This document shows, piece after piece, positions 1,020 to 30,103 of a stretch of DNA of 58,829 nt. The notes below the pieces were generated by a model, which worked only from the letters and a program-made list of their open reading frames with translations, did not search any database and was not told the origin of the DNA. The DNA is from a virus. Its lineage: Duplodnaviria > Caudoviricetes. A program made the position numbers and the translations under genes. The stretch is taken from the IMG/VR virus record IMGVR_UViG_3300026382_000018, positions 1 to 58,829 of that record; one strand, 5' to 3'. Within the stretch, counting starts at the first letter, position 1; each line of letters opens with the position of its first letter.

Positions 1020-2312
1020 TTATTGAATTTCTCCAATATACATAGTTTCTAAATTCCTTTTAAGAGGTATTCTTATACCTGATTTCCCACGTCTATTAAA
1101 CCCTAAATAAAAATACCCTTCAACTGCTCCTGTTTTGAAATTTAAACTGGAGATAGACCAACTTCTATGGGCTTTCCTTGCTGAATGAGCAAGATCATGA
1201 GGTTCTATTACTTCGCCTTTGTCAGGTTTATTCCAAGCATCCCTAACTGGTTGTGAAAAAGTCAAAATTGGAACTTGCCATTTTACTGCTAGATTAATCA
1301 AATCTGAATAAATATCCCCTGAGCTTTCGTAAAGCGAATCATTTTTACCTGAAGTAGGAATAAGACAATCATCATAATCTATTATAATGAAATCAGGTTT
1401 CCAGTTTTTAATTGCTTTTTGTCTAATAAGCCACGAATGTATATCAGTAGTAGTAGCTGATTTTTCAGGATAGTAAAGAACAAATAAATTGTCTTTAAGA
1501 ACTTGTGAAAACACTTTCTCTTTAAGCATACCCCATTCATCCTCATTAAGCCTTAAAATATCTGAATATGAAATTCCTCCGATTCTTTGAATATATCTCA
1601 TTAAAACTTCGTAATGAGTAAGTTCTAATGTAACATGCAACACTCGTTTTCCTAACATAGCGTTTACAGCACCAACATTAACTCCAAGTGCCGATTTTCC
1701 AGCTTTCGGTGGTGCTTGAACAACATGAATTTCACCAGGAGCAAAACCACCGTGAAAAATGTTGTCAAGTGTTGGAAAGCCAGTTGAAACGAGCACCGAA
1801 GGTGAATACCTTCTTATGAGCTCTTCTCTCACTTGATCTAAATCTTGAAAACTAACTGCATTATAACTTGAAGCACCTATCGATGCGATATACTCAAATT
1901 TATTCAGAACATAATCAATTTTCCCTTCCATAACATAACGCGGTAAATCAGGAAGAAGTTCTTTTATTTCTTTTTCTTTAAGAAACTTTACTACACGCTC
2001 CTTAACATAATTTACATCTACTGTTTCTTTGAATAATCTTTTGGCTTCTTGCAATACTTCTTTTGTGTCTTCAATTGCAAGTTGAGACAATCTATTTGAA
2101 ACTTCAACTAAAAATTGAGAAGAATTAAATGTTTCTTCAGATGCAAGTTCTTGCAAAATTTGAAGAAAAAGATTATATGGAAATTCAAACATTGGAGGCT
2201 CTAAAAGCATTAAAAAATCGAGCCTAAAAAGTGCATCTTGAACTAAAGCTACTAAAACCTGAAATTGAAATTGAGGTGAATAAAGCTTAGCTGTTGTAGG
2301 TTGTGCTAACAT
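1020..2312 (-). CDS. replicative DNA helicase (DnaB/T4 gp41-like, SF4)
   Basis: STGFPTLD, Walker A APPKAGKS, HVTLE, IIIDYDD, TFSQ motifs. Confidence 0.9.
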   Translation of the reverse strand: MLAQPTTAKLYSPQFQFQVLVALVQDALFRLDFLMLLEPPMFEFPYNLFLQILQELASEETFNSSQFLVEVSNRLSQLAIEDTKEVLQEAKRLFKETVDVNYVKERVVKFLKEKEIKELLPDLPRYVMEGKIDYVLNKFEYIASIGASSYNAVSFQDLDQVREELIRRYSPSVLVSTGFPTLDNIFHGGFAPGEIHVVQAPPKAGKSALGVNVGAVNAMLGKRVLHVTLELTHYEVLMRYIQRIGGISYSDILRLNEDEWGMLKEKVFSQVLKDNLFVLYYPEKSATTTDIHSWLIRQKAIKNWKPDFIIIDYDDCLIPTSGKNDSLYESSGDIYSDLINLAVKWQVPILTFSQPVRDAWNKPDKGEVIEPHDLAHSARKAHRSWSISSLNFKTGAVEGYFYLGFNRRGKSGIRIPLKRNLETMYIGEIQ

Positions 2313-2333
2313 CTTACCCTCCTCGTTTTAATT

Positions 2334-5435: not shown

Positions 5436-5459
5436 CTCACTCTCCTCCTTTAGTTTTCT

Positions 5460-7986: not shown

Positions 7987-7987
7987 T

Positions 7988-10595: not shown

Positions 10596-10608
10596 AACTA
10601 TTCCTCCT

Positions 10609-10884: not shown

Positions 10885-10886
10885 TT

Positions 10887-11816: not shown

Positions 11817-11839
11817 TTTACTCCTCCTATTAGTTTTCT

Positions 11840-11888
11840 ATTTCTACTAAAAATAAACAGAAATTCTCTAAAAATTCAGGCACATTTT
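11840..11888 (-). promoter_or_regulatory. phage-specific promoter motif, copy A
   Basis: AAAATGTGCCTGAATTTT-N11-TGTTT...TTAGTAG. Confidence 0.7.
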
Positions 11889-11952
11889 TGTAAAAATTAT
11901 TGTCATAAATTTGAGAAAATGAGTATTACCTGAGTAATAATAAAATCCAATC

Positions 11953-12016
11953 AACCCCTGAATATTTTGATTTCAGTATTACTAAATATTACAAAAAATT
12001 AATTTTGTAATACTAA
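11953..12016. repeat. 64-bp dispersed element, copy 1
   Basis: 55/64 ungapped identity to 31434-31497; contains hairpin TATTACAAAA-N6-TTTTGTAATA. Confidence 0.85.
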
Positions 12017-14190
12017 GCAACTAGTTTTGTAATTACATAAGCTTTTGCACTAATTAACTTCATTTTATCTTCCCAAAAGACAAACTCATCATCTCTCAGT
12101 CGTCGTTTAAATAAACTTTCCCAATATCTTGCTTTCTCATCTACATATCTATGTATCCACCACCACAAGTTTTTAACCCATTCAATTTCTAAAACTTCTT
12201 CAAGCCACTCTTCATACCATTTCACTTTCACTTTTGCAAAAAACTCTCTTAGAATTTTTCTTAGTCTTGGAGGTAATCCTTTAAAACCAGTTTCTTTAAG
12301 TTCATTTTCATTAACTTCTTCCCACCATACAACCAACCCATTTTGAGTTCGTTTGAATTTAAATCCAAGTTTTTCCAATTCGTTTCGTAACGCTCTAAAC
12401 ACTTTTGAGCGAGATATTATGTCCGATGGAACGAACTTTTTAACCAAAACTGGAGAAGAAGGTTTTTTCATAAGCTCTTTTATAAATTCAACAACATAAC
12501 CTTCTACTTTTTCAAAATGAGAATAAATGTATCTTTCATGTAGTTTATATTTCATGACAAGGTTCCAAAACTCAGCTTTTGTAATCTTATAATCAAAATT
12601 TTTACATACCCATTGAAGAACTTTGATTAAATGAGATATATGAAGTACTGGTCTTCCATCTTGAGTATAACTCACAATATACTTATAACACCAAGGAAAA
12701 TGTCTAAGAGCATTCTCAGATTGAAAATAAAAAAATTCTGGATTATCCTCATAGAAAAAAATGTCAAAAGGTGTCTTTTCATTTGGAGAAACTGAAATTT
12801 GATAATATCTTTTAACTTTCCCATTTTCATCATAGTGTTCATAAATTTTAAAAGGAAATCCTACTTTTTCTGAAAGCTCTTGAATAAATCCAATAAGACC
12901 TTGTTGAAACCTTCTTACTTCAGATTTAAGTTTTGGATTGTGAAGTTTTTCACCTCTTACAGTAGCTATTGCCTCACTTTTTAACTCTTGTACTTTTTTA
13001 TTTGAGGAGGTTTGAGGTTCTGAGGTTGTTTTCTCGTTATTAGAAATACTGATTTGAGTTGCAAATAATTTCTTAGAAGTTAATTTTCCATGCTTCTCCT
13101 TAAAATACTTAAGTAATCTATCTCCGTCTATATAAGTTCTGATGTATAAAGGACCATCTTTTTTAACATAGTTTTTGTGTCCTTCTTCAGAAAGCTGATG
13201 TTTTTGAAGTCTATAATGAAGCTCTTTTACTTCCTCTTTTTCCATTAATTGTTTATCCTTATAAAAATCTCTTGCAAGAGCTACTTTGCAAACTTCCTCA
13301 ATTTTATATTGTGAAGAAAATATAAGTCTTGCAGGTTCATATATAGAAATATCTGCTAAACCTTTGTATTCAAGTTGCATATAAGCAAGAATTTGATCCA
13401 TTTGTTTTTTATCTTTCACTTTAACTGGAATGAAAATATGAAGTCCTTTTCCAGATTTTGAAACTTGTCTTAAGTAATAGGTTGTTCTATTAAGTAAAGT
13501 GTCTACTGGTTTTCCATTTTCAAATTCTTTTAAAACCTCATAAATATTATCTTCATCATCAATATCAATGCAAATAAGTGTTATAGAATTTTCCTCGATT
13601 CTTGCGTTCTCTTGTTTTCTGTGATTATTTTCAAAAATGTAAGGTGTATAAAATTTTCCTTTTTTCATCATAATCTTTTTAAATTCCTCAATTGTAAGTT
13701 TTTGAGAATAGGATTTATTTTTACTTAAAGTGAAATCTCCAATCCCAATTGTGAGCTTATCATCTGAAGACATAGGAGTATTAAGATAAAACCAACCAGA
13801 TGGAAAACGACTTGTAGTGTTAACTGGAAGATGAACTCCTGTTATAAAATCAGATTTACCAAATGAAAATCCGTGTAAAGTGTTTCTTTGATACCTAAGT
13901 CCAAAAGGAGTTTCAAATTCAATTACTTCAATTGTTGATTGTAAAACTTGAGATTCTAAAACTGCATTTTCTATATACCACTTTAACGCTTCTTCATTAT
14001 GTCCCACCCAAGGCATATAATATTTTTTGGCATCTTCATAACTTTTAAATGTTAAAAAATCTTTTTGAGTTCTTGTATCCTTGTATCTAGTTAAAATAAC
14101 GCCAGTAGTGGGACATTTTTCTTCTCCAAGTTTTTCATATCTTCCAACTGTCAATATTCTCTTTATTTTGTAGTCCATCTTACCCTCCAT
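12013..14190 (-). CDS. large AEP-superfamily primase-polymerase / replication protein (likely start ATG 14178)
   Basis: AEP motif I ICIDID, motif II SKSGKGLHIF, motif III DISIYEPARL; GGAGGGT RBS before ATG 14178. Confidence 0.75.
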   Translation of the reverse strand: MEGKMDYKIKRILTVGRYEKLGEEKCPTTGVILTRYKDTRTQKDFLTFKSYEDAKKYYMPWVGHNEEALKWYIENAVLESQVLQSTIEVIEFETPFGLRYQRNTLHGFSFGKSDFITGVHLPVNTTSRFPSGWFYLNTPMSSDDKLTIGIGDFTLSKNKSYSQKLTIEEFKKIMMKKGKFYTPYIFENNHRKQENARIEENSITLICIDIDDEDNIYEVLKEFENGKPVDTLLNRTTYYLRQVSKSGKGLHIFIPVKVKDKKQMDQILAYMQLEYKGLADISIYEPARLIFSSQYKIEEVCKVALARDFYKDKQLMEKEEVKELHYRLQKHQLSEEGHKNYVKKDGPLYIRTYIDGDRLLKYFKEKHGKLTSKKLFATQISISNNEKTTSEPQTSSNKKVQELKSEAIATVRGEKLHNPKLKSEVRRFQQGLIGFIQELSEKVGFPFKIYEHYDENGKVKRYYQISVSPNEKTPFDIFFYEDNPEFFYFQSENALRHFPWCYKYIVSYTQDGRPVLHISHLIKVLQWVCKNFDYKITKAEFWNLVMKYKLHERYIYSHFEKVEGYVVEFIKELMKKPSSPVLVKKFVPSDIISRSKVFRALRNELEKLGFKFKRTQNGLVVWWEEVNENELKETGFKGLPPRLRKILREFFAKVKVKWYEEWLEEVLEIEWVKNLWWWIHRYVDEKARYWESLFKRRLRDDEFVFWEDKMKLISAKAYVITKLVA

Positions 14191-14192
14191 TT

Positions 14193-15293: not shown

Positions 15294-15301
15294 CTTTCAC
15301 C

Positions 15302-15502
15302 TCACTCAATAATTTCTGAAAGCAAAGTGTCGATATCAACATTACTTGGAATTGATACTTCAAAAAGAAAACCGTTTGGAGTTTTGTCTTTTTTGGTAAC
15401 CTTGACAAAATCAAGTTTTAGAGTTTCTCCCTTCCTTAAAGATGTTATCAAAAGTAAAATTTGAGCTAAATATTGTCTTGCTATTTTGCTTCCCTTAGAC
15501 AT
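15302..15502 (-). CDS. hypothetical 66-aa protein
   Basis: AGGAGG RBS; first gene of the leftward arm. Confidence 0.7.
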   Translation of the reverse strand: MSKGSKIARQYLAQILLLITSLRKGETLKLDFVKVTKKDKTPNGFLFEVSIPSNVDIDTLLSEIIE

Positions 15503-15524
15503 TCTGAAACCTCCTAATAAAATC

Positions 15525-15573
15525 TCTCTACTAATAGAGAGACGAAATACATCTCAAAATTCAGGCACATTTT
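15525..15573 (-). promoter_or_regulatory. phage-specific promoter motif, copy B
   Basis: AAAATGTGCCTGAATTTTGAG...CGTCT...TTAGTAG. Confidence 0.7.
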
Positions 15574-15900
15574 AACGCAATTTTTTGTTTCAATATGCGA
15601 TTTCATTTTTGACAAACATCCAAAAATTCGTAACAAAATCTACTATAACCTTTTGAATTACAATAAGTTAAATCGTAAATTTAAGTAAAAGATTGAAATT
15701 CAGTAAGTTATCATCACTTTTCTTAAAACAAAAAAGTATAATCTGCTCTATTTTGAAGTCATAGGTATTCAGATACCTTCCTAACAAAATAATCGAAATT
15801 AGAAGGTCATAAGTCATAAAACTCACTGAGTTTCAAAAATTTCTCAAATCAAAAACATTTTCTCATTCTCAACTCAATAATACTTTTCCTAATTCTTTCT

Positions 15901-16249
15901 TCCCTGCAATAATCGTTACGTATATCGTCTCGATTATATTTTTAATTTCCAAACTCCTTTCCCTGTGTATATCGTAACGTATTGAAATTCAAAGAAAACA
16001 TTCTGAAAATGGAAGAGAGATATATCAGATACATCTGATTATTTATCTGAAGAAAGATAGGAAATGAAATATTTCTCGTTTAGCTATACTTTATTTCGGT
16101 TCTCATTTATTCTCTGTATAAATCATAACGTATTGATTTGCAAGGAATACATTCTGAAAATAGATGAGTAAAAAATAAACATATATCAAATCAGATATTA
16201 CTTCATAATTCATTGAAACTCAATAAAAACATTCTGAAAATAGATGAGA
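15901..16249. repeat. interleaved degenerate direct repeats in the divergent intergenic region (candidate origin or packaging region)
   Basis: 23-bp box TCYCTG-N5-ATCRTWACGTAT at 15901/15960/16111; 38-bp box ATTGA...ACATTCTGAAAATRGAWGAG at 15981/16132/16212. Confidence 0.8.
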
Positions 16250-16352
16250 TATACACATAAGTTATGGTGAGATGAGTATATGACTTTTGACTTCAATAAA
16301 GTGAGATTTTAACCTAAGTTGAAATGCTCTAGATTTGAGATGAATTTTTTCG

Positions 16353-16398
16353 AAAATGTGTGCCTGAATTTTGAGGTGTGATTCGTTATTTATTAGTG
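16353..16398 (+). promoter_or_regulatory. phage-specific promoter motif, copy C
   Basis: AAAATGTGTGCCTGAATTTTGAG...CGTTA...TTAGTG upstream of the rightward arm. Confidence 0.7.
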
Positions 16399-16477
16399 AG
16401 AGGGGTTTGAGGTTCTGAGGTTATTATCAAGGTTTTGGATTGTGAAGATTTTAAAAAATTTAAAAGGAGGTTAAGTT

Positions 16478-17008
16478 ATGGCGAATGCTAAGATTTTAAG
16501 TTATTTGATTTATGATGGAGATGTAGTTTCTGTTGTATTTAGTAGGTATTCAGATTTGGAAAATGTTGTAAAAGTAGTTTCTGCTAATGTTAGTGATGAT
16601 GTGTTTTTAAAACTCGAAACAGATGAGGAAAGTGAAAAGAAACTTGAAAGTATAAATCTTAAAGGAGTTATTGGAATTTATACAGTTGAAACTAAAGGAA
16701 CTATTCAACTTTCTTCAGATTATAAGGTGATAGTTAACTTCAAAAACAAATTTAAAGTTGAAATTCCGTTTCAAGGAAGAAATTACTTTTTGAAAGCTTG
16801 TAATGAATTTGAAAACATCTTAAAGGAAGGAAAAACAAGATTCATTTTTTATCAAGGTAAGGATCTTCCAGCGTATTTGGATTTAACAAGTGTTAGATAT
16901 CTTAGATTTGTTAGACCAAAAAGAAAGAATCAGGACTTAGACCTTTCAGATTTGGATAAATACGAATTTGAGTTGCTTAAAAGTTTAATTGATGAGGAAG
17001 AGGTTTAA
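16478..17008 (+). CDS. hypothetical protein
   Basis: AAGGAGG RBS. Confidence 0.75.
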   Translation: MANAKILSYLIYDGDVVSVVFSRYSDLENVVKVVSANVSDDVFLKLETDEESEKKLESINLKGVIGIYTVETKGTIQLSSDYKVIVNFKNKFKVEIPFQGRNYFLKACNEFENILKEGKTRFIFYQGKDLPAYLDLTSVRYLRFVRPKRKNQDLDLSDLDKYEFELLKSLIDEEEV

Positions 17009-17009
17009 A

Positions 17010-17657
17010 ATGTCTACTTGTTTAATTGAGAATTATGTTATGACATTTAAGGATCATCCAGGTGAATATGCTATTGTTTTTTATACAAATCCACAACTTT
17101 GTAACCTCAATTGTTATAAATGTCATAATAAACTCAAATCTAAAAGTAAAAGTTTTAAGTTTATAAGTGAGAATGAGTTTAGAGATAAGCTCAGAAAAGC
17201 AAAGATGCTCGGTTCTTCCCTTGTTATTATTTGTGGAGGAGAACCAACTTTAGTTAACTTCAATGAATTAGTTAAAGTGTTGCAAATTATTAAAGAGTTT
17301 GGTTTTAAAGTTAGACTCGATAGTAATGGACAGAATTTGGAAGTTATAAAGAAATTAGTTTTAGAAAAATTAGTTGATGGTTTTGCAATTGATGTAAAAA
17401 TTCCTCTTTCAGTTTATAAAGAGCATTATTCTCTTATTTTGTTTTCGGAAGCAGGAAAGGAAGATAAAGTGAAGTTGTATCAAAAAAATTTGAAAGAAAC
17501 TTTGAGGTTTCTTTCTTGTTTCTCATTACCTTATACTTTACTTAGAACTGTTAAGTATCCATTGTTTGATAATGAAGATTTGTTTTTAATAAAACAGGAT
17601 ATTTTGAAGTTTAATCTTAAGCATTATATAAACGAATTTGTTGATTTGGAGGAATAG
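17010..17657 (+). CDS. nrdG: anaerobic RNR activating enzyme (radical SAM)
   Basis: DHPGE, CNLNCYKCHN (CxxxCxxC), GGEPT, LDSNG, AIDVK; adjacent to nrdD. Confidence 0.92.
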   Translation: MSTCLIENYVMTFKDHPGEYAIVFYTNPQLCNLNCYKCHNKLKSKSKSFKFISENEFRDKLRKAKMLGSSLVIICGGEPTLVNFNELVKVLQIIKEFGFKVRLDSNGQNLEVIKKLVLEKLVDGFAIDVKIPLSVYKEHYSLILFSEAGKEDKVKLYQKNLKETLRFLSCFSLPYTLLRTVKYPLFDNEDLFLIKQDILKFNLKHYINEFVDLEE

Positions 17658-17659
17658 GT

Positions 17660-19291
17660 ATGGAAGGTTATGTAAATCCTTATTTTCAAATTATTGAAAG
17701 TTATATAAAAGATGTAGATGAAATTTCAAGAAATAACGCAAACTTTGTAAAATCCTTAGCAACATTAGAAACATCAATAGTTGGAGCAGTATCTAAGGAC
17801 TACTTATTTGATGTAATTTATGAAGGTCTTCCAGTTAGACCTTTACATGACTATGGCTGGATATATCATCATCAAACATTTAAACTTTCTCCATATTGTA
17901 TAGGTTTATCTGCAAAAAGTATAGCATTTTATGGATTAAGAAGTAATGCTAAAAATGATAAGGTTGCTAAGTCACCAAAAAGATTAGATACATTGTTTAT
18001 GCAGTGTGCTAATCTGATATGCTTGGTATCTCAGGAAGTATCAGGTGCTACATCTTTAAACGACATATCAGTAGTAGCAGCTGGCTATTTGTATGTTGAA
18101 GAGGAAATTAACAAAACTAAGAAATATACCGATTATGAATTGAAGAATATCTGGCAGAATTTCCTTTACAACATTAACTTACCATTTAGAGCAGGTAATA
18201 GTCCTTTCTCAAACATTACGTTAGACTTTGGAAAACCTCCTTACAATCTGAAAGATGAACCAGTTATTTTTGCAGGAAAACCTTTAGACTTCACATATAA
18301 GGATATACCATCTGAATTTTATGACAGAATCAATAAAGCATTTATAGATGCAATGGATGAAGGAGATGGATTAGGAAATCCATTTACATTTCCTCTTATC
18401 ACTGTCAATGTAGATGAAGAATTTGATTATGACAATCCGGTTTGGAAATACTTCTTGCAAAAAGTACAAAAGTTCGGAGGATTTTACATTCAAAACTACT
18501 ATCAAAAACCGTTCATTGATACTCCTTATAAAGAGAAGAATCCGTATATTAAACCATTAGATAAAGGGACTATTTATAGTAACTGTTGCCGGATGATGTT
18601 TTCTACTTCTCTTATAAACGCTTTGGGAATATCAGATAATCAAACTTCTAAGAATGGAATTGAAGAAACTCTTGACTCCACTAAAGTTGGCTCACATGTT
18701 TTTGGTGCAATGTCAGGAGTAGGAGGAATAGGAGTAATCAATATAAATTTAGCAAGACTCATTTGGCTATCTGGTGGAAGTACTAGAGACTTATTTAAAG
18801 CTTTAGATTATTTATTCGAAGTAGCACAAAAAGCATTGCAAAGAAAAAGAGAGTGGATTAGAAAACATTACACAGATCTTTACCCATATCTTTCTTTCTA
18901 TCAACCATCTGATAAAACACTTTACAACATCTTCTCAGTAGTGGGAGTACATGAAGGTTTACAAGCATATTACAAAGGTGGAATTTACAATCCAAAAGGA
19001 AGAGAAATTGCTCATAAAATAGCACAATGGATTGCTAAGAAAATTGAGCACATGATGAATAGAGACAAAGTACTTTGCAATTTAGAATATGCGCCATCGG
19101 AAAATGCTGCACCTAGAATGGCAAAGTATGATTTAATTTTTGCAAATGAGTTAGCAAGAGCTATTGAAAAAGGAGAAGATCCTATTACTAAACTTTCTGA
19201 TACATTTCTCAAAGATGATTTTATTAGAGAATGGACAAAACAAATGTTAAATAAACATAGCGAAAAACTATTTAAAAGAATAGGAGGTTAA
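17660..19291 (+). CDS. nrdD: class III ribonucleotide reductase, N-terminal subunit (split gene, no ATP cone)
   Basis: HDYGWIYHH, PYC, SGATS, PFSNIT, FTFPLIT, SNCCR, VININLAR, GVHE, EYAPSE. Confidence 0.9.
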   Translation: MEGYVNPYFQIIESYIKDVDEISRNNANFVKSLATLETSIVGAVSKDYLFDVIYEGLPVRPLHDYGWIYHHQTFKLSPYCIGLSAKSIAFYGLRSNAKNDKVAKSPKRLDTLFMQCANLICLVSQEVSGATSLNDISVVAAGYLYVEEEINKTKKYTDYELKNIWQNFLYNINLPFRAGNSPFSNITLDFGKPPYNLKDEPVIFAGKPLDFTYKDIPSEFYDRINKAFIDAMDEGDGLGNPFTFPLITVNVDEEFDYDNPVWKYFLQKVQKFGGFYIQNYYQKPFIDTPYKEKNPYIKPLDKGTIYSNCCRMMFSTSLINALGISDNQTSKNGIEETLDSTKVGSHVFGAMSGVGGIGVININLARLIWLSGGSTRDLFKALDYLFEVAQKALQRKREWIRKHYTDLYPYLSFYQPSDKTLYNIFSVVGVHEGLQAYYKGGIYNPKGREIAHKIAQWIAKKIEHMMNRDKVLCNLEYAPSENAAPRMAKYDLIFANELARAIEKGEDPITKLSDTFLKDDFIREWTKQMLNKHSEKLFKRIGG

Positions 19292-19293
19292 AA

Positions 19294-19803
19294 ATGGAAA
19301 GACTTGTTCCAACTTATCGACCATCTGGAAACATTAAAAGTATGAAAGTTTATTTGTCATCTGGATTTCAACCACCAAATGATTATGATGACTTGTTAGA
19401 TGCATTAGATGTTACTGCTGAATTTCAATCATACGCTTCTGGTGGTGCTATTTTGCATGTATGGCTTTCAGAAGAGTTAAATAATGAAGAGCTTGAAAAA
19501 TTTATAAGAAGTATTGCCGAAAATTTGCCAGTTGTTTACTTTACTGTTACTCCATATCTTACAGTTTGTAATCAATGTGGTTATAAACAGGTTGGTAGAA
19601 TTCATAAATGTCCCAAATGCGGAAGTAATGATGTAACTCAATATTCTAGACCTATTGGATATTTCAGACCTGTAGAAAGACAATATGATTCTGATGAAAA
19701 TGCTTGTTATAAATTTTGGCTTGATGCAAAAATTGAAGAATATAAAAATAGACTTGATGTGACAAAAGAAATGATAGATGAGGTAATAAATAATTTTGGG
19801 TAG
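19294..19803 (+). CDS. nrdD: class III ribonucleotide reductase, C-terminal subunit carrying Zn site and glycyl radical
   Basis: SGGAILH, YFTVTP, CNQC...CPKC, YSRPIGYFRPV; own GGAGGT RBS. Confidence 0.9.
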   Translation: MERLVPTYRPSGNIKSMKVYLSSGFQPPNDYDDLLDALDVTAEFQSYASGGAILHVWLSEELNNEELEKFIRSIAENLPVVYFTVTPYLTVCNQCGYKQVGRIHKCPKCGSNDVTQYSRPIGYFRPVERQYDSDENACYKFWLDAKIEEYKNRLDVTKEMIDEVINNFG

Positions 19804-19830
19804 TGAGTAAGTCCTCACTACCCATATTTT
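19797..19830 (+). terminator. stem-loop / probable intrinsic terminator after nrdD
   Basis: TGGGTAGTGAG-taagtc-CTCACTACCCA followed by TATTTT. Confidence 0.65.
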
Positions 19831-19845
19831 GATGCGAGGAAAACA

Positions 19846-20367
19846 ATGGGAAGAAATAAATCGAAAAATAAAGGAAAAGCATTTGAGGAAAGAGTAGCTA
19901 AGATTTTTAGAGAGTGTTGGAATCTTTCAAAACATGAATGTCATAGAGCTCTTTCTTCAGGAACTTATCAAGTTGATTATTCAGATATAGTTTTTTCACC
20001 AGAAACAATAAAAAGACCTCATTTAGTTGTAGAGTGTAAAAAGAGAGCTCATCTTCCAGCAAATCAACTTTTATCATTTCCTAATGAACTTAAAGTTTGG
20101 ATAAATCAACTTGAAGAGTCGGTTCAAAAATATTTTAGTCATTTTCAAGTTTATCCACTTCCGTTAATTGTATTTGCAATTAACAATATGAAACCACTTG
20201 TAATAGTTGATAAAAGAGAACTTGAAAGAGTAAAAAACGAGCCAAGACTTAATTTAACTTTAGCAAAGTCAATAACTGAATTAGATTTTTACATCGTAAA
20301 TAAGAATTTTGTAGCTACTTGGCTTGAAGATTTTCTCAAGAGTTGTTTAATTCCAATTGAAATTTAA
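19846..20367 (+). CDS. Holliday junction resolvase (Hjc-like PD-(D/E)xK nuclease)
   Basis: KGKAFEERVA...R..SSG...SDIV...VECK. Confidence 0.82.
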   Translation: MGRNKSKNKGKAFEERVAKIFRECWNLSKHECHRALSSGTYQVDYSDIVFSPETIKRPHLVVECKKRAHLPANQLLSFPNELKVWINQLEESVQKYFSHFQVYPLPLIVFAINNMKPLVIVDKRELERVKNEPRLNLTLAKSITELDFYIVNKNFVATWLEDFLKSCLIPIEI

Positions 20368-20385
20368 ATTTTGTGCAATTATATT
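20357..20385 (+). promoter_or_regulatory. sigma70-type promoter for the candidate sRNA / packaging operon leader
   Basis: TTGAAA-17 bp-TATATT; same -10 hexamer as the other two sigma70 promoters. Confidence 0.7.
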
Positions 20386-20391
20386 AATTTA

Positions 20392-20492
20392 AAAGACCTA
20401 AGTTAAATAGGGAAAGTATATAAGTAGTCCATCTTACCCTCCTCACTCTCCTCCAAATTCGAGGCGGGAAATAACTCCCGCCTCACCATTTT
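20392..20492 (+). ncRNA. candidate trans-acting antisense sRNA against RBS/start codons of replication genes
   Basis: Own promoter; 20424-20454 tiled by exact matches to 14170-14188, 2310-2324 and 5436-5448; 3' 9-bp GC hairpin 20461-20484 followed by ACCATTTT. Confidence 0.65.
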
Positions 20493-20510
20493 AGCTTAAA
20501 AGAGGATGAT

Positions 20511-20984
20511 ATGAGTAAAATTAAAACAGTATCGGAACTTGATAGGAAGCTAAAAGAGTTTAGAGATTACTTAGAAGGTTTTAAAAAATCCTATTCTATA
20601 GATCCAGATTTAGACTCACTTAAGCTAGAAGTTGCTTCATTTACTCGTTTGATGCTTAAAAAATACATGTCAAGACTTATTAAGCTTGGAGAACGCTTAG
20701 AACAACTTGAAGATGAGCTCTTATCTAACCAAGAGCTTGGTGATTTTATAGAAAAAGTTGAGTTTTATAATTCATTAATTCAATCATACAATATGATTTT
20801 TAATAACCTCAAATCACTTGTTCCAGTTTTGAAAGAGCTTTCAAAATTATCTAATTCAGTTGAGCTTAGAGTTGTAAATACTGAGGAAGATAGTTCAATA
20901 CTTGAAGAACTTGAACTTAATAAAGAGACAAGGGAAACACTAAAGCAGATTTTAGACTCAGTGATGCAATATGTTGAGGTTTAA
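20511..20984 (+). CDS. probable terminase small subunit
   Basis: Helical 157-aa ORF directly upstream of TerL (positional call). Confidence 0.5.
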   Translation: MSKIKTVSELDRKLKEFRDYLEGFKKSYSIDPDLDSLKLEVASFTRLMLKKYMSRLIKLGERLEQLEDELLSNQELGDFIEKVEFYNSLIQSYNMIFNNLKSLVPVLKELSKLSNSVELRVVNTEEDSSILEELELNKETRETLKQILDSVMQYVEV

Positions 20985-20987
20985 GAT

Positions 20988-22856
20988 GTGTTAGACTTAT
21001 TTAAAGAAAAGCTCAAAACTCTTCCAGAAAAAGAGAAACAAGTATTAAAAAAGCTAATTGAAAAGTTCCAAAGTGATCCAAAAGTTTTGTTTCAAATATA
21101 TGCAGAACTTGAAGGTTATAAAGAAGTACCTGTTGATATAATAACATTTATCGAGCATCCAAAATATTTAGGAGCTAATCTTAAAGGTAGAATATATCCA
21201 GTATGGCGTAAAGCGTTAAGACAAGTATTTCCAAATCCTTTTTATTCACCTTATTATGAAGTAATACTTAAAGGTGCAATTGGTATTGGAAAAACTACTA
21301 TTGCAAGAATTATTGTTTTGTATGATTTATATAGACTTTTGCTTCTCGAAAATCCTCACAAAAAATTTAACTTGATTCCAACTGATAGGATAGTAATAGC
21401 TCTTTTTAACGCGACTCTTGGACTTGCTGATCAGGTTTTATATGAACCATTTAAGAATTTGATAGCAAACTCAGAATTTTTTCAAGAACATCTTGATCCA
21501 GAAAATAAGAAAACTTCAGAAATCAGATTTGTTAATAACATTGGTATCGTTGCTGGTTCTCGTTTTACTCACACACTTGGTATGGCAGTATTTGGTGGTT
21601 TACTTGATGAAGCTAATTTTGATGTAATATCAAATCAAGCTCAGGAAAGTTATAATGCTCTTTTGAGACGTATGGAGTCAAGATTTGCTCAAGCTGGCGG
21701 TAAGCTTCCTGGACATCTTTGTTTAGTTTCATCTGAGAAGTCTCCAACTGATTTTGTTTCTCAGCACGCAGAGAAAGTAAAGAATAAAAAAGGAGTAATA
21801 GTTTTTCAATATCCGATATGGGAAGTTAAGAAACATCTTGGTATATATTCAGGTAAGACTTTTAAAGTTTTTATTGGAGACGAAACGACAGATCCATTCA
21901 TTATAGAAGATGAATCACAACTTAAGTATATAGACGAATCAAGAGTAATAGAAGTTCCAATAGAGTTAAAAGATAAATTTGAACTTGATCTTCATAATGC
22001 AATAAGGGATTTAGCAGGGTATGCTGTAGGTTCAACATTTAGACTCTTTAAGTCTAAAAACATTCTTATAAAGCAAGCAGTAGTAACAAATCCAGTAAAA
22101 CAAGAAATAGTTCGTTTATCATTTAACGATAAATCAGATGTTCTTATCAACTATTTTAATGTTGATTATCTCAGAAATCCACTTCATAAGACCTCACCAA
22201 GAGTAATGCATATTGACCTTTCTATAACAGGTGATAGAACAGGTATAGCGTGTGGATACATAAAAGGATATAAGGAAGTAAAAAGAGTTGATCCAATAAC
22301 TCTTGAAACTCATGTATTTTCAGAACCAGAAATTGTTATTGATTTTGTAGTTTATTTAGAACCTCTTCCAGGTGAAAGAATTCCGTTTTATAAAATAAGA
22401 CAGTTTATACTTGACTTATCTAAACTTAATTATCCACTTGTAATGATAACTACTGATGGTTTTCAATCTGAAGATATGAGACAACAACTTACTCAAATGG
22501 GATATAAAACTGCTTTGCTTTCAGTTGACAAAACTAAAGATCCATATCTCTCATTTAGAGATGCAATATACGAAGAAAGAGTATGGATACCAAAACATAA
22601 TCTTCTTATAAAAGAGCTTTTATATGTAGAAGATGTTGGAAAGAAAATCGATCATCCTCACGAGTTTCCAGACGGAACGAAAGGAAGTAAAGATGGTGCA
22701 GATGCAGTAGTTGGTGTGTATTGGAACTTAATGACTAATAAGGATCTTATTAAGCAATTAGCATTCTATAAAATTCATAATGTTGAGTCAAAGGAAGAAG
22801 AAAAAGAAAGAACTTTAGCAAAGCTTTTCTGGGGACATTCTGAGTACGATTTATAG
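20988..22856 (+). CDS. terL: terminase large subunit
   Basis: Walker A GAIGIGKT, Walker B LLDEA, coupling motif VSS, nuclease HIDLS...DGFQS...IDHP...SKDGADA. Confidence 0.93.
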   Translation: MLDLFKEKLKTLPEKEKQVLKKLIEKFQSDPKVLFQIYAELEGYKEVPVDIITFIEHPKYLGANLKGRIYPVWRKALRQVFPNPFYSPYYEVILKGAIGIGKTTIARIIVLYDLYRLLLLENPHKKFNLIPTDRIVIALFNATLGLADQVLYEPFKNLIANSEFFQEHLDPENKKTSEIRFVNNIGIVAGSRFTHTLGMAVFGGLLDEANFDVISNQAQESYNALLRRMESRFAQAGGKLPGHLCLVSSEKSPTDFVSQHAEKVKNKKGVIVFQYPIWEVKKHLGIYSGKTFKVFIGDETTDPFIIEDESQLKYIDESRVIEVPIELKDKFELDLHNAIRDLAGYAVGSTFRLFKSKNILIKQAVVTNPVKQEIVRLSFNDKSDVLINYFNVDYLRNPLHKTSPRVMHIDLSITGDRTGIACGYIKGYKEVKRVDPITLETHVFSEPEIVIDFVVYLEPLPGERIPFYKIRQFILDLSKLNYPLVMITTDGFQSEDMRQQLTQMGYKTALLSVDKTKDPYLSFRDAIYEERVWIPKHNLLIKELLYVEDVGKKIDHPHEFPDGTKGSKDGADAVVGVYWNLMTNKDLIKQLAFYKIHNVESKEEEKERTLAKLFWGHSEYDL

Positions 22857-22866
22857 GAAGGTTCTA

Positions 22867-24330
22867 GTGATGAGTTTAATAGGAAAAATCCTTTCTGGTT
22901 TAGGGATAAACATTTTTCAAAATCAAGTTTTACATCAACCTGAAGAAGCTAAAACTTTAAAAGTTAAAAATGACTTTAATTTCAGAGAATTAAACGAGCT
23001 TTTATCAACTTATTTTCAGATAAATAGAAATTACACTCAGTATTACAAAGAAATTTCAAGGATAAAAGAAATATATATTGCAGAAATAATTTTAGAGCAG
23101 TTAGCTTTTGATGTTTTAACTCCTGACATTTCCTCACAAAACATTATTGAAATTGTTCCTAATATAGATAACAAAGAGCTTAAAGATGCGTTAAAAGAAT
23201 TTGAAGAAATTCATAATATAGATCAGCTTGTTTCTGATATCATACAAGACCTCATAGCGTTTGGAAGTTATCCTTTACGTTTAGTTATTGAAGAAGGAAA
23301 AGGGATAGTTGAGATAATAGATGATTTAGAACCTTATGAAGTTATTCCTTTTTATAGAAATCAAGAGCTTGAGTTTTATTTAAGACTTGATGAATACGGA
23401 AATCCAGAAATACATTCTCCTCATGAATTTGTAGTGTTTTTAATTGATGCAAAGAGAATTAAACTAAAACTTGACAAGCGTTATCTATATTACATAGAAC
23501 AAAAGAAAGGAAAACAATTTCCACGTTACATAAAAGTTGGCTCTCCTCTCTTTTCTCCAGGAGTTATCAAAAAGATAAAAGAACTTGATTTATTAGAAAA
23601 GCTTATTCCAGCTTCAAAGATAAATACTTTGTCAAAAGGTAATGTAGTTGGAGTGTATGTTCCTCCTTCTATGTCTCCTGAGGAAGCTTTAGAATTTGCT
23701 AAAAAGATTGAAAGAAAACTTAATGCACTTGGAATAGGAATAAATAAAGACTTAGACCAGCTTTCTATAACTGATATTCTAAAAGGTGCAGGTCGTATTA
23801 AAGTAATTCCTGTTACAAATGAAAAAGGACAGGTTGTTAAAATAGATTATAAACCTGAAGAGCCATCTGATTTACTTGATGTAATTCAAAACCTCAGAGA
23901 AGTTATTTTGACATCTATAGGTATTCCTCCGGAACTTATTTTTAATACAGGAAATTCAACGAAAGGGGAAATTCTTAAAAGATACTCAAGATATCTGAGA
24001 AAGTTAAAATATATTCAAAAGGCGATAGTAAATGGTTTAAAAGAGCTTGTTTTAATTCATCTTGTTAATAAAGGTTTATCAGTAACTCCTAAAGATTTTT
24101 CAGTTAGATTTACTAATACACTTGTTAATGTTGATGATTTAGATAAGCTTGAGTTTCAACAAGCTACTACTCAAATACTTACAGATATAAAACGTTTTGT
24201 AGATGAGCTAAAACAAGACGAGGAACTTTCTCAATATGTTAATAACGAAGGTTTTGTTGAATACCTAAATAATGAGCTTACAAAAGTAAATTTAGATAAA
24301 CTTATTCAACTTCCAGGAGAGGAAAAATGA
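22867..24330 (+). CDS. portal protein
   Basis: 487 aa after TerL; ILTSIGIPPELIF and RYSRYLRKLKYIQ resemble gp20-like wing/stem motifs. Confidence 0.8.
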   Translation: MMSLIGKILSGLGINIFQNQVLHQPEEAKTLKVKNDFNFRELNELLSTYFQINRNYTQYYKEISRIKEIYIAEIILEQLAFDVLTPDISSQNIIEIVPNIDNKELKDALKEFEEIHNIDQLVSDIIQDLIAFGSYPLRLVIEEGKGIVEIIDDLEPYEVIPFYRNQELEFYLRLDEYGNPEIHSPHEFVVFLIDAKRIKLKLDKRYLYYIEQKKGKQFPRYIKVGSPLFSPGVIKKIKELDLLEKLIPASKINTLSKGNVVGVYVPPSMSPEEALEFAKKIERKLNALGIGINKDLDQLSITDILKGAGRIKVIPVTNEKGQVVKIDYKPEEPSDLLDVIQNLREVILTSIGIPPELIFNTGNSTKGEILKRYSRYLRKLKYIQKAIVNGLKELVLIHLVNKGLSVTPKDFSVRFTNTLVNVDDLDKLEFQQATTQILTDIKRFVDELKQDEELSQYVNNEGFVEYLNNELTKVNLDKLIQLPGEEK

Positions 24331-24935
24331 AACTTGTAGAAAAGCTTAAACGCAAACTTGAAGAGTTTAATGCTCTCACAATTGCACCAATTGGAACACT
24401 AGGTATTGTTGATTTAGATACTGAAATTGAATATGACCTAGATGAACTTGAAGATAGATTTAGAGAAATACTTGATTATTTAGGTTTCAAAAATATAGAT
24501 GTAAAAATTTTATCTTTTGATGATATGACAGGTGATTTACTTGTTAGGTTTATTAATCCAGAAAATAAAGAAGAAGTTGATGTTCTTTTTACAGTAGCAA
24601 ACAATGAGATAGTCGCAGCTGTAGTTAGTGAAGACGACGAACCAATAGAAGTGAATTTAACTAATCTTGATATTCCTTTAGCACAATATTTTGTTCAAAT
24701 AGGTATCGACTGGGATGAACCTTTAACTTGGCTTAAAAAATCAGTTGTTTATGCTTTTCTTGAAGCAGGAAAACTTTTAAACGAAGTTCATGTTCCGATT
24801 TTTGGGAAAAGAAAAGCTAAACTTCCTCTTGTTAAGAAAGGATTACATCCTGTAGTAAAACATAATCTTAAGAGACTTAAAAATAGAGATTGTAAAAGAA
24901 AAGGGAAAGTAAAAGTTAAAAAAGTTAGAAATTAA
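24327..24935 (+). CDS. putative head/internal protein with shared N-terminal leader
   Basis: MKLVEKLKRKLEE leader; acidic core, basic C-terminus. Confidence 0.6.
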   Translation: MKLVEKLKRKLEEFNALTIAPIGTLGIVDLDTEIEYDLDELEDRFREILDYLGFKNIDVKILSFDDMTGDLLVRFINPENKEEVDVLFTVANNEIVAAVVSEDDEPIEVNLTNLDIPLAQYFVQIGIDWDEPLTWLKKSVVYAFLEAGKLLNEVHVPIFGKRKAKLPLVKKGLHPVVKHNLKRLKNRDCKRKGKVKVKKVRN

Positions 24936-24945
24936 TTTCTGATGT

Positions 24946-25022
24946 GCCGACGTAGCTCAGTTGGCTAGAGCGGGTGATTTGTAATCACCTGGTCGGAGGT
25001 TCGAGTCCTCCCGTCGGCACCA
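24946..25022 (+). tRNA. tRNA-Thr(UGU)
   Basis: Acceptor stem GCCGACG/CGTCGGC + A-CCA, anticodon arm GGTGA-TTTGTAA-TCACC, T-loop GTTCGAGTC. Confidence 0.96.
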
Positions 25023-25049
25023 TTTTTGATTACATTTGAGGAGGAAATG

Positions 25050-25307
25050 ATGTCAAAAGTTATAAAACCTAAAACTAACGATAGAAAGATTTTCGTTCAA
25101 ATCAAAAACGAAATCAAAGTTTTCCCTCTTCCAGCTACAAATGAGATACTTAAACTTAAATCAGTTCAATACTTTTTAAATCAAGGTATTCTTGAAATTG
25201 TTGACGATGAAAAATCTAAAAGTGAAACCAGAAAATCAAATCATAAGAAATTTAAATCGAAAAAAGAGCGTACCGAGAAGAAGAAGGAAAATAAACCCAA
25301 AGCGTAG
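25050..25307 (+). CDS. small basic hypothetical protein
   Basis: GAGGAGG RBS before ATG 25047/25050; Lys-rich tail. Confidence 0.65.
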   Translation: MSKVIKPKTNDRKIFVQIKNEIKVFPLPATNEILKLKSVQYFLNQGILEIVDDEKSKSETRKSNHKKFKSKKERTEKKKENKPKA

Positions 25308-25317
25308 GTAAGATGTC

Positions 25318-25914: not shown

Positions 25915-25925
25915 AGGTTTAAGCA

Positions 25926-30041: not shown

Positions 30042-30048
30042 GCTTTAA

Positions 30049-30084: not shown

Positions 30085-30103
30085 AGCTTAAAGGAGGAAA
30101 TAG

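What the first reader, a model, noticed from the sequence alone, without database searches (positions are those of the whole stretch)
20357..20492. Candidate multi-target antisense sRNA whose core is tiled by complements of replication-gene start sites
Seen: the gap between the resolvase and terS holds a canonical promoter (TTGAAA-17-TATATT, 20357-20385), a non-coding ~100-nt unit and a 9-bp GC hairpin (20461-20484). Its 31-nt core GTAGTCCATCTTACCCTCCTCACTCTCCTCC (20424-20454) is fully covered by exact + strand matches to translation starts of minus-strand genes, so the RNA would be antisense to their mRNAs. The matches are 19/19 to 14170-14188 (SD, ATG and codons 2-3 of the AEP replication protein), 15/15 to 2310-2324 (SD and ATG of the DnaB helicase) and 13/13 to 5436-5448 (SD of the first gene of the dut/kinase/exonuclease/helicase unit). 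There is also a 14/15 match to 4926-4940 (dut) and 12/13 to the start of 58486-58767. Established: phage RNAs such as P1/P7 C4 and P4 CI act in trans on phage mRNA. Inference: one host-RNAP-transcribed sRNA translationally silences several replication genes 6-18 kb away, acting as a replication timer, copy-number control or RNA-based immunity/carrier-state switch. No integrase or CI-like repressor is visible in the window.
Basis: partly seen in the sequence, partly recalled or inferred. Interest (0 to 1): 0.92.

Follow-up and report, generated by a model that had tools for sequence, protein, structure and literature searches.

The report
Antisense mosaic leader before phage terminase
The short non-coding stretch in front of this phage's DNA-packaging genes carries copies, in antisense, of the ribosome-binding starts of the phage's own early replication genes, and two related phages keep the same arrangement matched to their own genes, which suggests an RNA that turns early genes off, although no expression data exist.

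Summary
In the 143-nt gap before the putative terS gene, the 31-nt pyrimidine core (20424-20454) matches the translation starts of minus-strand genes exactly. The matches are 19/19 to the primase-like gene, 15/15 to DnaB and 13/13 to gene 5211-5435. An SD-aware control shows that 13-mers are ordinary, while the 15-mer and 19-mer exceed all 79 real start regions.

Only three related whole genomes could be found. Two of them carry antisense copies of their own early starts at the same place: 22/22, 20/21 and 40/45 (the primase start codon plus codons 2-14). Silent sites between the window and these relatives are saturated, so the identity is being actively maintained. The third relative keeps the architecture but has no such match.

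By duplex energy only the primase target clearly beats shuffled controls in the window, so the "multi-target" claim is weak. The promoter is unproven: only a -10-like box is shared, and such hits are not enriched. The GC hairpin is present in all four genomes with different sequences and passes a terminator rule in two of four, not in the window.

Best reading (about 0.5): a + strand leader or sRNA that pairs with early mRNAs, chiefly primase. Rivals are a cis anti-SD leader for terS, or copied start-site modules without RNA function. There is no RNA evidence.

The parts
20357..20385 (+). Promoter-like site TTGAAA-17-TATATT, overlapping the stop of the upstream PD-(D/E)XK resolvase-like gene
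   Evidence: scores 10 of 12, but such sites are not enriched in 15000-26000 (30 found, 49.8 expected); only the -10-like box is shared with the relatives (TATAAT in L003, L004 and L006). A minus-strand site at 20406-20378 scores equally well.
20398..20411 (+). Conserved box CTAAGTTAAATAGG between the -10-like box and the tract (possible 5' stem, -35 element or regulator site)
   Evidence: 13 contiguous bases are identical in L006, and L003/L004 carry a related TTAACTAGGTTAG; the box is not repeated elsewhere in the window beyond chance (15 hits with up to 3 mismatches, 14.95 expected); in L003/L004 this box supplies the first hexamer of an alternative promoter-like site.
20424..20454 (+). Pyrimidine-rich core (15 C, 2 G of 31). 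Read on the minus strand it looks like two tandem ribosome-binding sites plus ATG GAC TAC.
   Evidence: Mean unpaired probability is 0.62-0.68 in the modelled leader RNA.
20424..20442 (+). Segment antisense to the start of the primase-like gene (SD, spacer, ATG, codons 2-3)
   Evidence: 19/19 identical to 14170-14188. blastn-short E 2.5e-5. Duplex -40.2 kcal/mol; 0 of 25 shuffles reach it.
20430..20444 (+). Segment antisense to the DnaB helicase start (SD and ATG)
   Evidence: 15/15 identical to 2310-2324. Longer than any match of the 79 control start regions, whose maximum is 14. Its duplex energy of -31.1 lies inside the shuffle range.
20442..20454 (+). Segment antisense to the ribosome-binding site of gene 5211-5435
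   Evidence: 13/13 identical to 5436-5448, ending exactly at the ATG. Ordinary in length. G001 and G002 carry homologous variants matched to a 5'UTR of their own.
20461..20484 (+). 9-bp GC-rich hairpin with a 6-nt loop; terminator-like
   Evidence: -17.7 kcal/mol and present in every fold. Relatives have a hairpin at the same place with different stem sequences. These are flagged as + strand terminators in L006 and L003, but not in L004 or the window.
20488..20510 (+). Post-hairpin T-run, then the SD (AAGAGGA) of the putative terS
   Evidence: 18 of 19 bases are identical to 30080-30098, which follows the canonical terminator after gene 28659-30041. In the minimum-energy folds of all four genomes the terS SD pairs with the upstream pyrimidine tract.
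20511..20984 (+). Putative small terminase subunit, assigned by position only
   Evidence: Sits directly upstream of terL (20988-22856), whose tblastn hits in phage records include 'terminase large subunit'. It has no family hit of its own. 72-74% identical to the relatives' proteins.
14170..14188 (-). Translation start region of the primase-like gene 12013-14178; main candidate target
   Evidence: Protein identity is weak: PHROG 'DNA primase' E 2.6e-4, Pfam BT4734-like_N 18.3 bits below the 22.4 cut-off, Atlas leads to primase families.
2310..2324 (-). Translation start region of the DnaB-like helicase 1020-2312
   Evidence: (DnaB_C 3.6e-18). The start region and first ~8 codons differ from the three relatives, and 13 nt equal the primase start region.
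5436..5448 (-). Ribosome-binding site of gene 5211-5435 (74 aa, no family)

Best explanation
The gap in front of the packaging genes encodes a + strand, non-coding leader RNA. Its order is a -10-like box, a conserved box, an accessible pyrimidine tract and a GC-rich terminator-like hairpin, followed directly by the terS ribosome-binding site.

The tract is an actively maintained antisense copy of the translation-initiation regions of the phage's own early, opposite-strand genes, above all the primase-like replication gene. When + strand middle or late transcription runs, this tract would base-pair with the early mRNAs over the SD, the start codon and the first codons. That would block ribosome binding, and the 19-22-bp perfect duplexes would probably expose the mRNAs to a double-strand RNase. 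The result would be shut-off of replication-initiation proteins as packaging begins.

The active RNA could be a short transcript ending at the hairpin, the 3' end of the upstream nrdD-resolvase mRNA, or the 5' end of the terS mRNA. This is not resolved.

Shown: the complementarity, its non-randomness, its recurrence in relatives, the conserved hairpin and the absence of a conserved ORF. Inferred: transcription of the tract (from flanking gene orientation), pairing in vivo, repression and timing.
For: 1. Exact matches of 19, 15 and 13 nt to minus-strand start regions. The 19-mer and 15-mer exceed all 79 real start regions used as an SD-aware control, whose maximum is 14.
2. The tract lies between two + strand genes 143 nt apart, so it should be transcribed in the + sense whichever promoter is used. 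The gap holds no + ORF of 20 aa or more.
3. The same gap in G002 holds a 22/22 match to the 5'UTR, SD and ATG of an opposite-strand early gene, plus 34/43 to its primase start. G001 holds 20/21 and 40/45 (from 3 nt before the primase ATG through codon 14).
4. The best duplex beats all 25 shuffles in G000 (-40.2 against mean -26.0), G001 (-48.5 against -34.0) and G002 (-55.5 and -45.4 against -34.3).
5. In G000 and G002 the terS gap holds the longest exact antisense-type match to any start region. In G001 its 15-nt exact match ties with one other, but its 40/45 primase copy is far longer. The G002 row is mislabelled because of a spurious + ORF; correct it.
6. Four-fold degenerate sites between the window and the relatives are 0.32-0.52 identical, which is saturated, and the primase proteins are only 52-54% identical. 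Yet the window's leader equals its own primase start 19/19, against 18/22 to the G001 or G002 starts.
7. Own-genome targets score best in 5 of 6 leader-segment comparisons.
8. Three variants of the first segment (GGAGGAGAGTGAG, GGAGGAAGAGATG, GGAGGAGAGATGAG) each occur in both the leader and the target of one genome.
9. A hairpin is present in all four genomes with different stem sequences, and it is flagged as a terminator only on the + strand.
10. The segments are moderately accessible, with unpaired probability 0.58-0.71.
11. Minus-strand small ORFs are not conserved: 9 aa; 11 and 25 aa; 26 aa; none.
12. No reverse transcriptase is found in any of the four genomes, which speaks against a DGR-like origin.
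Against: - There is no expression evidence of any kind.
- G003, the only complete relative and the one closer to G001/G002 than the window is, keeps the architecture but has no extended complementarity. 9 of 25 shuffles reach its best energy.
- In the window only primase beats the shuffles. DnaB and 5211-5435 do not.
- Two of the five own-best margins are only 1-2 score points, and the G002 leader fits the G001 primase better than its own.
- Mismatches do not favour pairing. In G001 the 4 transitions give C.A mismatches, and in G002 the 4 coding-part differences are G.U-compatible. That is 4 of 8 overall, which is chance.
- Exact sense-sense repeats of 15-29 nt between real start regions exist, so start-site modules are copied around in these phages without any antisense logic.
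- The promoter is not supported beyond a shared -10-like box.
- The window's hairpin and L004's are not listed by the terminator rule.
- Only four genomes exist, and two are close relatives of each other.
Confidence: 0.5

Rival explanations
1. A cis-acting leader only. The pyrimidine tract is an anti-SD element that folds back, across the clamp of the GC hairpin, onto the terS ribosome-binding site. It may also work with the hairpin as a terminator or attenuator. It would keep terminase translation or read-through low until a late factor or condition opens it. The likeness to early start regions would be a by-product of building an anti-SD from start-site-like sequence.
For: In the minimum-energy folds of all four genomes the terS SD (AAAGAGG) pairs with an upstream pyrimidine segment across the hairpin. 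G003, which lacks the trans complementarity, still keeps the tract with CCCTCC, the hairpin and the spacing. The hairpin sits 10-25 nt before the terS SD, leaving no room for a promoter, so terS must be read through it. In G001 the leader variant CCTCTTT is a perfect complement of the terS SD.
Against: An anti-SD needs 5-8 nt. It does not explain 19/19, 22/22 or 40/45 identity to other genes, including spacers, start codons and up to 14 codons. The terS start region is not among the eight best duplex partners of the window's tract, so the cis pairing is generic SD/anti-SD pairing. The two functions are not exclusive.
Confidence: 0.17
2. No RNA function. The tract is a minus-strand pseudo-start-site mosaic, a scar of module shuffling. 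It stays similar to real start regions through the same short-homology copying or gene conversion that spreads start-site and 5'UTR modules among real genes in these phages.
For: Sense-sense exact repeats of 15-17 nt occur between real start regions in G000-G002, and of 16-29 nt in G003. The window's DnaB start region and first ~8 codons were replaced relative to the three relatives, and 13 nt now equal the primase start. G003 has lost the matches without losing the gap. In G001 all 4 coding-part differences fall at third codon positions, which is odd for a pure pairing constraint.
Against: The gap is one of the few long + + gaps in compact genomes and has kept its architecture across saturated divergence. 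The matched patches (19-22 nt) have no flanking homology that would support conversion. Pieces from genes 21 kb apart lie within 16 nt of each other and cover only start regions. The longest antisense-type matches fall in the same gap in three genomes.
Confidence: 0.2
3. A DNA-level element. The direct repeats shared by the gap and the early gene starts would be binding sites for one protein (a replication initiator, a late activator or terminase), or part of a pac/cos region next to terS.
For: The repeats are direct repeats on the DNA. Packaging sites often lie at or before terS (recalled). A weak Mor-like activator gene lies next to the primase-like gene.
Against: Each repeat pair has a different sequence rather than one shared motif. 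The repeats cover SD, ATG and codons, not promoters. The hairpin keeps its structure but not its sequence, which points to RNA. The ends of the complete relative with terminal repeats are not near terS.
Confidence: 0.05
4. A translated minus-strand micro-ORF (MDYLYTFPI in the window), driven by the strong tandem ribosome-binding sites.
For: On the minus strand, a perfect SD with a 4-nt spacer precedes the ATG at 20432. G001 and G002 have 25-26-aa minus-strand ORFs that begin like the primase.
Against: The peptides are not conserved in length or sequence, and G003 has no ATG-initiated ORF. The site lies inside a + strand unit, with no supported minus-strand promoter shared by the relatives.
Confidence: 0.03

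Closest known systems
P4 CI RNA (and the related P1/P7 C4 RNA)
   Same: A phage-encoded untranslated RNA that keeps the element's own replication genes, including the primase, from being expressed by antisense pairing at more than one target sequence. The P4 mechanism was read in passages of PMC4825925. C4 is recalled.
   Different: CI and C4 are processed from the leader of the operon they control and pair with sites on the same-strand transcript. In P4 this causes premature transcription termination in the lysogenic or plasmid state. Here the targets are translation starts on opposite-strand transcripts 6-18 kb away, and the RNA heads the packaging operon. No tyrosine integrase was found, and no Rfam family, C4 included, matched.
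Lambda late leader: the PR'-6S RNA-tR' arrangement
   Same: A short leader ends at a terminator immediately before the late genes, so late expression needs read-through. The lambda 6S leader is listed as an Hfq-dependent phage sRNA of unknown function in PMC12197685, section 2. The Q antitermination logic is recalled.
   Different: No antisense complementarity to early genes is known for lambda 6S (recalled). No Q-like antiterminator was sought or found here. The promoter here is unproven.
Gifsy-1 IsrK
   Same: One promoter gives both a terminated short RNA and a read-through mRNA leader, and the short form acts in trans by base pairing (PMC4825925, abstract and passages).
   Different: IsrK acts on its own read-through mRNA and activates translation. 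Here the proposed targets are other, opposite-strand mRNAs, and the proposed effect is repression.
Cis-encoded phage and plasmid antisense RNAs (lambda OOP, P22 sar, plasmid R1 CopA)
   Same: Antisense RNAs that block translation or trigger RNase III cleavage of a regulator or replication mRNA. OOP and sar were read in PMC12197685, section 2. CopA is recalled.
   Different: Those RNAs are transcribed from the opposite strand of their target, so complementarity is automatic. Here the RNA is encoded elsewhere, and complementarity has to be maintained by evolution.
C-rich, SD-targeting sRNAs of Gram-positive bacteria (RsaE/RoxS, RNAIII)
   Same: Unpaired C-rich motifs pair with the G-rich SD of several mRNAs (recalled, not tested).
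   Different: Those seeds are short (UCCC) and generic. Here the matches extend to 19-45 nt, including spacers and codons, and are gene-specific.

Membership tests
Trans-encoded base-pairing sRNA | Discrete transcript with its own promoter or processing site | tested here: inconclusive
   The window site scores 10 of 12, but such hits are not enriched. Only a -10-like box is shared with the relatives. G001/G002 have an alternative placement. No RNA run was listed.
Trans-encoded base-pairing sRNA | Rho-independent terminator at the 3' end | tested here: inconclusive
   A GC hairpin is present in 4 of 4 genomes. It passes the simple hairpin-plus-T-run rule on the + strand in 2 of 4 (L006, L003), not in L004 or the window.
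Trans-encoded base-pairing sRNA | Complementarity to target mRNAs beyond chance, at a site where pairing can regulate | tested here: met
   19/19, 22/22, 20/21 and 40/45 over SD, ATG and first codons. These exceed the SD-aware control and the shuffles in 3 of 4 genomes.
Trans-encoded base-pairing sRNA | Seed and target change together in relatives | tested here: inconclusive
   Own-genome targets are best in 5 of 6 comparisons, two by small margins. One concerted variant occurs per genome in the first segment. G003 has none. Only four genomes are available.
Trans-encoded base-pairing sRNA | Demonstrated effect on target expression | not testable with these tools
   Needs reporters, toeprinting or infection experiments.
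P4 CI / P1-P7 C4 immunity RNA | Sequence and structure family (Rfam C4; the name is recalled) | tested here: not met
   No Rfam family reached threshold in the window or in L003/L006. In 20200-20650 at E up to 10, the only hit was a chance frameshift element.
P4 CI / P1-P7 C4 immunity RNA | Targets lie on the same transcript as the RNA and act through termination or upstream-ORF coupling, in a lysogen or plasmid state | tested here: not met
   The targets are on the opposite strand at translation starts. No tyrosine integrase is found in 4 of 4 genomes. Serine recombinases and repressors were not searched.
Lambda-type late leader with terminator (antitermination control) | A terminator directly before the first late gene, with no room for a promoter after it | tested here: met
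   The hairpin ends 26 nt before the terS ATG in the window and 18-27 nt before it in the relatives.
Lambda-type late leader with terminator (antitermination control) | A phage antiterminator (Q-like) acting at the late promoter | not tested
   No search for Q-like proteins was made. There is a weak Mor-like activator hit in gene 14193-15293 and no sigma-70 region 2 in any of the four genomes.
Cis anti-SD 5' leader | An upstream pyrimidine segment pairs with the gene's own SD | tested here: inconclusive
   Predicted in the minimum-energy folds of 4 of 4 genomes. The pairing is generic: terS is not among the eight best partners of the window's tract.

The most novel reading that the evidence does not exclude
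A reciprocal RNA switch between replication and packaging. In cis, the leader tract locks the terS ribosome-binding site. Pairing in trans with the 5' ends of the early primase or early-operon mRNAs would silence those mRNAs and, at the same time, free the terS start. Terminase would then be made only once early mRNAs have accumulated, and replication-initiation proteins would stop being made as packaging starts. The same RNA would also block the early genes of closely related superinfecting phages, giving sequence-specific, RNA-based exclusion among kin.
Probability: 0.12. Interest if true: 0.9.

Novelty: new variant of a known kind. Interest (0 to 1): 0.7.

Why it matters
Phage antisense regulators known so far fall into three groups (review section read; passages). 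Some are cis-encoded, some act on host genes, and some belong to temperate immunity systems that act within one transcript.

A trans-encoded antisense RNA at the head of the late operon of a phage with no tyrosine integrase, kept matched to its own primase start across saturated divergence, would be different. It would be a post-transcriptional early-to-late switch built from copies of the target starts.

The case also gives a concrete, falsifiable set of seed-target pairs in three genomes. It suggests a cheap genomic signature for finding such regulators in uncultured phages: antisense copies of early start regions inside late-operon leaders. Synthetic antisense oligomers aimed at phage start regions are already in use as a tool (PMC12571901, seen only as a search listing and the start of the abstract). 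This would be a natural counterpart.

Tried and rejected
More relatives:
- Searches with terS alone, the terS alignment in viral contigs and in metagenome contigs returned nothing, or only the same three genomes.
- The terL alignment in genome contigs and blastn against phage records gave nothing.
- The primase alignment added one 7.4-kb fragment (L028) that does not reach the terS gap.

Expression: no RNA holder was listed.

Rfam: nothing at threshold.

Primase identity:
- There was no PDB sequence match.
- The AlphaFold model was poor (pLDDT 58, pTM 0.35), so no fold search was run.
- The name therefore rests on sub-threshold hits.

Ideas rejected:
- A DGR or retron-like origin for the A/G differences: no reverse transcriptase in any of the four genomes.
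- A repeated late-promoter motif built on the conserved box: not repeated beyond chance in the window.
- A phage sigma factor: none found.
- A Rho-loading (rut) role for the C-rich, G-poor tract was considered but could not be tested.

Literature: searches listed no paper describing a late-operon leader that carries antisense copies of early start regions. I read only the listings, one review section and passages of one paper.
Full report
WHAT THE WINDOW IS

The window is a whole IMG/VR virus record of 58,829 bp. It is linear, estimated 66% complete, and 32% G+C. Minus-strand genes fill 1-15,502 and 56,783-58,767. They include a DnaB-like helicase (1020-2312), a dUTPase and a 721-aa primase-like protein (12013-14178). 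Plus-strand genes run from 16,478 onwards: a split anaerobic ribonucleotide reductase, a PD-(D/E)XK resolvase-like gene (19846-20367), the gap in question, a 157-aa ORF taken as terS by position, terL, and structural genes.

The 'primase' label is weak:
- PHROG 'DNA primase', E 2.6e-4.
- Pfam BT4734-like_N, 18.3 bits, below the 22.4 cut-off.
- Atlas leads to BT4734-like, RepB-primase and P4-family primase clusters.
- No PDB sequence match and a poor AlphaFold model (pLDDT 58).

THE OBSERVATION

- The 31-nt core is unique. It has exact same-strand matches of 19/19 (14170-14188), 15/15 (2310-2324) and 13/13 (5436-5448). It also matches 14/15 at 4926-4940 and 12/13 at 58764-58776.
- Read on the minus strand, the core looks like two tandem ribosome-binding sites followed by ATG GAC TAC. 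The first 13 nt equal the site of gene 5211-5435 up to its ATG. The rest equals the DnaB and primase sites, the primase ATG and its codons 2-3.
- The promoter-like hexamers, the 9-bp GC hairpin (-17.7 kcal/mol) and the minus-strand micro-ORF are present.

IS IT MORE THAN CHANCE?

All genes on both strands have strong GGAGG-type sites, so a control that respects this was needed.
- I took the 31-nt start region of each of 79 genes, with the gap masked, and found its longest exact match anywhere else in the window. The maximum was 14 nt (5 regions), 8 regions reached 13, and none reached 15.
- So the 13-mer, the 14/15 and the 12/13 are background. The 15-mer and especially the 19-mer are not. No real start region is tiled as fully: 31/31 for the core against 21/31 at best.
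- With RNA duplex energies, the primase start (-40.2 kcal/mol) lies far outside 25 shuffles of the leader (mean -26.0, sd 2.5, lowest -33.3). DnaB (-31.1) and 5211-5435 (-29.2) do not.
- The DnaB match exists because DnaB and primase share a 13-nt start sequence in this genome. The DnaB start and first ~8 codons differ from those of all three relatives.
- 'Multi-target' is therefore only weakly supported in the window. 'Primase-matched' is strongly supported.

RELATIVES

Only three related whole genomes could be found: G001 (85.0 kb), G002 (80.9 kb) and G003 (88.8 kb, terminal repeats, complete). All other searches returned the same three or nothing. An extra primase-bearing fragment does not reach the gap.

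All three relatives have a gap before terS with the same order of parts:
- a TATAAT box;
- a box related to CTAAGTTAAATAG;
- a G-poor pyrimidine tract containing CCCTCC;
- a GC-rich hairpin whose stem sequence differs in each lineage;
- a T-rich tail;
- the terS SD.

The hairpin is called a terminator on the + strand in G003 and G001. It is not called in G002 or in the window (by my reading, the window's T-run has only 4 of the 5 T the rule requires).

THE KEY RESULT

In G002 the tract holds a 22/22 exact match to the 5'UTR, SD and ATG of an opposite-strand early gene. That target lies just downstream of a TATAAT box. The tract also matches the start of G002's primase gene at 34/43. In G001 the same places give 20/21 and 40/45, the latter running from 3 nt before the primase ATG through codon 14.
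- The best duplexes beat all 25 shuffles in both genomes.
- I scanned every start region for exact matches of 14-15 nt or more. In G000 and G002 the longest match in which one RNA would be antisense to the other falls in this gap. In G001 its 15-nt exact match ties with one other, but the 40/45 primase copy is far longer. One row was mislabelled by my gene caller and was corrected by inspection.
- G003 has no such match: 9 of 25 shuffles reach its best energy.

IS THE IDENTITY MAINTAINED?

- Four-fold degenerate sites in terS and terL are 0.32-0.52 identical between the window and the relatives, which is saturated. The values are 0.86-0.87 between G001 and G002, and 0.75-0.77 between G001 and G003. 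The primase proteins are 52-54% identical.
- The arrangement [first early-site segment][primase start] is shared by the window and G001/G002, so it is probably older than their split. Yet each leader resembles its own primase start: the window is 19/19 to its own against 18/22 to the G001 or G002 starts.
- Three variants of the first segment each occur in both the leader and the target of one genome.
- Own targets score best in 5 of 6 comparisons.
- A neutral relic cannot stay identical through saturated divergence. So either selection for complementarity or repeated copying is at work.

Caveats:
- Two own-best margins are tiny, and the G002 leader fits the G001 primase better than its own.
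- Mismatches are no more pairing-friendly than chance (4 of 8).
- Exact sense-sense repeats of 15-29 nt between real start regions show that start-site modules are copied about in these phages anyway.
- G003 shows that the matches are dispensable.

HOW IT MOST LIKELY WORKS

The tract lies between two + strand genes, so it should be present in + strand RNA whatever the promoter. It could sit in a terminated short RNA, in the 3' end of the upstream mRNA, or in the 5' end of the terS mRNA. Its segments are moderately accessible, with unpaired probability 0.58-0.71.

Pairing would cover the SD, the start codon and the first codons of the primase-like mRNA, and in the relatives the 5' end of an early operon. 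That is where antisense pairing blocks initiation. Perfect duplexes of 19-22 bp are about the length a double-strand RNase needs (recalled). I therefore favour a trans-acting antisense function that shuts off early replication genes when + strand middle or late transcription rises, at a confidence of about 0.5.

A cis role is also likely. In all four genomes the minimum-energy fold pairs the terS SD with the pyrimidine tract across the hairpin. The hairpin also leaves no room for a promoter before terS, so terS depends on read-through. On its own, the cis role does not explain the long gene-specific identities.

The other rivals are less likely, for the reasons given with each:
- a copied-module scar without RNA function (0.2);
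- a DNA-level site (0.05);
- a minus-strand micro-ORF (0.03).

COMPARISON WITH WHAT IS KNOWN

In function the closest system is the P4 CI RNA, which keeps P4's replication genes off by antisense pairing at two sites (passages in PMC4825925), together with P1/P7 C4 (recalled). Membership fails for three reasons:
- no Rfam family matches;
- the targets lie on opposite-strand transcripts at translation starts, not on the same transcript;
- no tyrosine integrase is present.

In architecture it resembles the lambda PR'-6S-tR' leader, and Gifsy-1 IsrK, where one promoter yields both a short RNA and a read-through leader. Unlike OOP, sar or CopA, the RNA is not encoded opposite its target, so the complementarity has to be kept by evolution.

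Searches listed no paper describing such a leader. I saw only the listings, one review section and passages of one paper.

VERDICT

- It is a new variant of a known kind.
- Interest is 0.7. The maintained, gene-specific complementarity in three genomes is a real and unusual signal. There is no expression evidence, only four genomes exist, one relative lacks the complementarity, and the promoter and the multi-target claims are weak.

Noticed in passing
L003:5899-5972 and L006:4321-4392 (between terS and the next gene in the relatives): A conserved Y-shaped structured element of about 75 nt: a long outer stem enclosing two hairpins. Minimum free energy for the 135-146-nt stretch folded is -52 and -46.5 kcal/mol, z -6.2 and -4.4. 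There is no Rfam family at gathering threshold. It is absent from the window, where the terS stop and the terL start are 3 nt apart.
   Followed up: partly
window 30042-30103: A canonical intrinsic terminator (8-bp GC stem plus T-run) follows gene 28659-30041. The next 19 nt up to the following SD are 18/19 identical to the stretch after the terS-leader hairpin, so this looks like a repeated terminator-plus-RBS module.
   Followed up: partly
window 14193-15293 (-): The gene just upstream of the primase-like gene has weak, sub-threshold hits to Mor/C-type late transcription activators: Pfam PF08765 at 19.9 bits against a 24.9 cut-off, and PHROG 532 at E 1.7e-4. It is a candidate activator for -10-only late promoters.
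   Followed up: no
window 1020-2312 (-) start region, 2310-2324: The start region and first ~8 codons of DnaB differ from those of all three relatives (MLAQPTTAKL against MNEKPKLYSK/MSEKPKLYSK). 13 nt now equal the primase start region, which suggests a swapped 5' module.
   Followed up: partly
window 17660-19291 and 19294-19803 (+): The anaerobic ribonucleotide reductase NrdD is split into two adjacent ORFs covering Pfam profile positions 2-427 and 436-559. An 11-bp hairpin at 19797-19824 follows.
   Followed up: no
window 5436-5478 and upstream of 10887-11816 (-): The same ~17-nt sequence (tagaaatagaaaactaa) precedes the ribosome-binding sites of two early genes. G003 has a 29-nt exact repeat of promoter-like box plus 5'UTR plus SD at two early operons. 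Early 5' modules are therefore repeated.
   Followed up: no
L003:4735-5169 and L004:4737-5171: G001 and G002 carry an extra 144-aa + strand ORF between the resolvase-like gene and the leader. G003 has about 1.5 kb with two ORFs (134 and 324 aa) between terS and terL.
   Followed up: no
G001 leader copy against the G001 primase start (L003:5232-5276): All 4 differences in the coding part fall at third codon positions, and all would give C.A mismatches in an RNA duplex. In G002 the 4 coding-part differences are all G.U-compatible. The numbers are small and the pattern is unexplained.
   Followed up: partly
window 24946-25022 (+): A tRNA-Thr (anticodon TGT) lies inside the structural gene block.
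   Followed up: no
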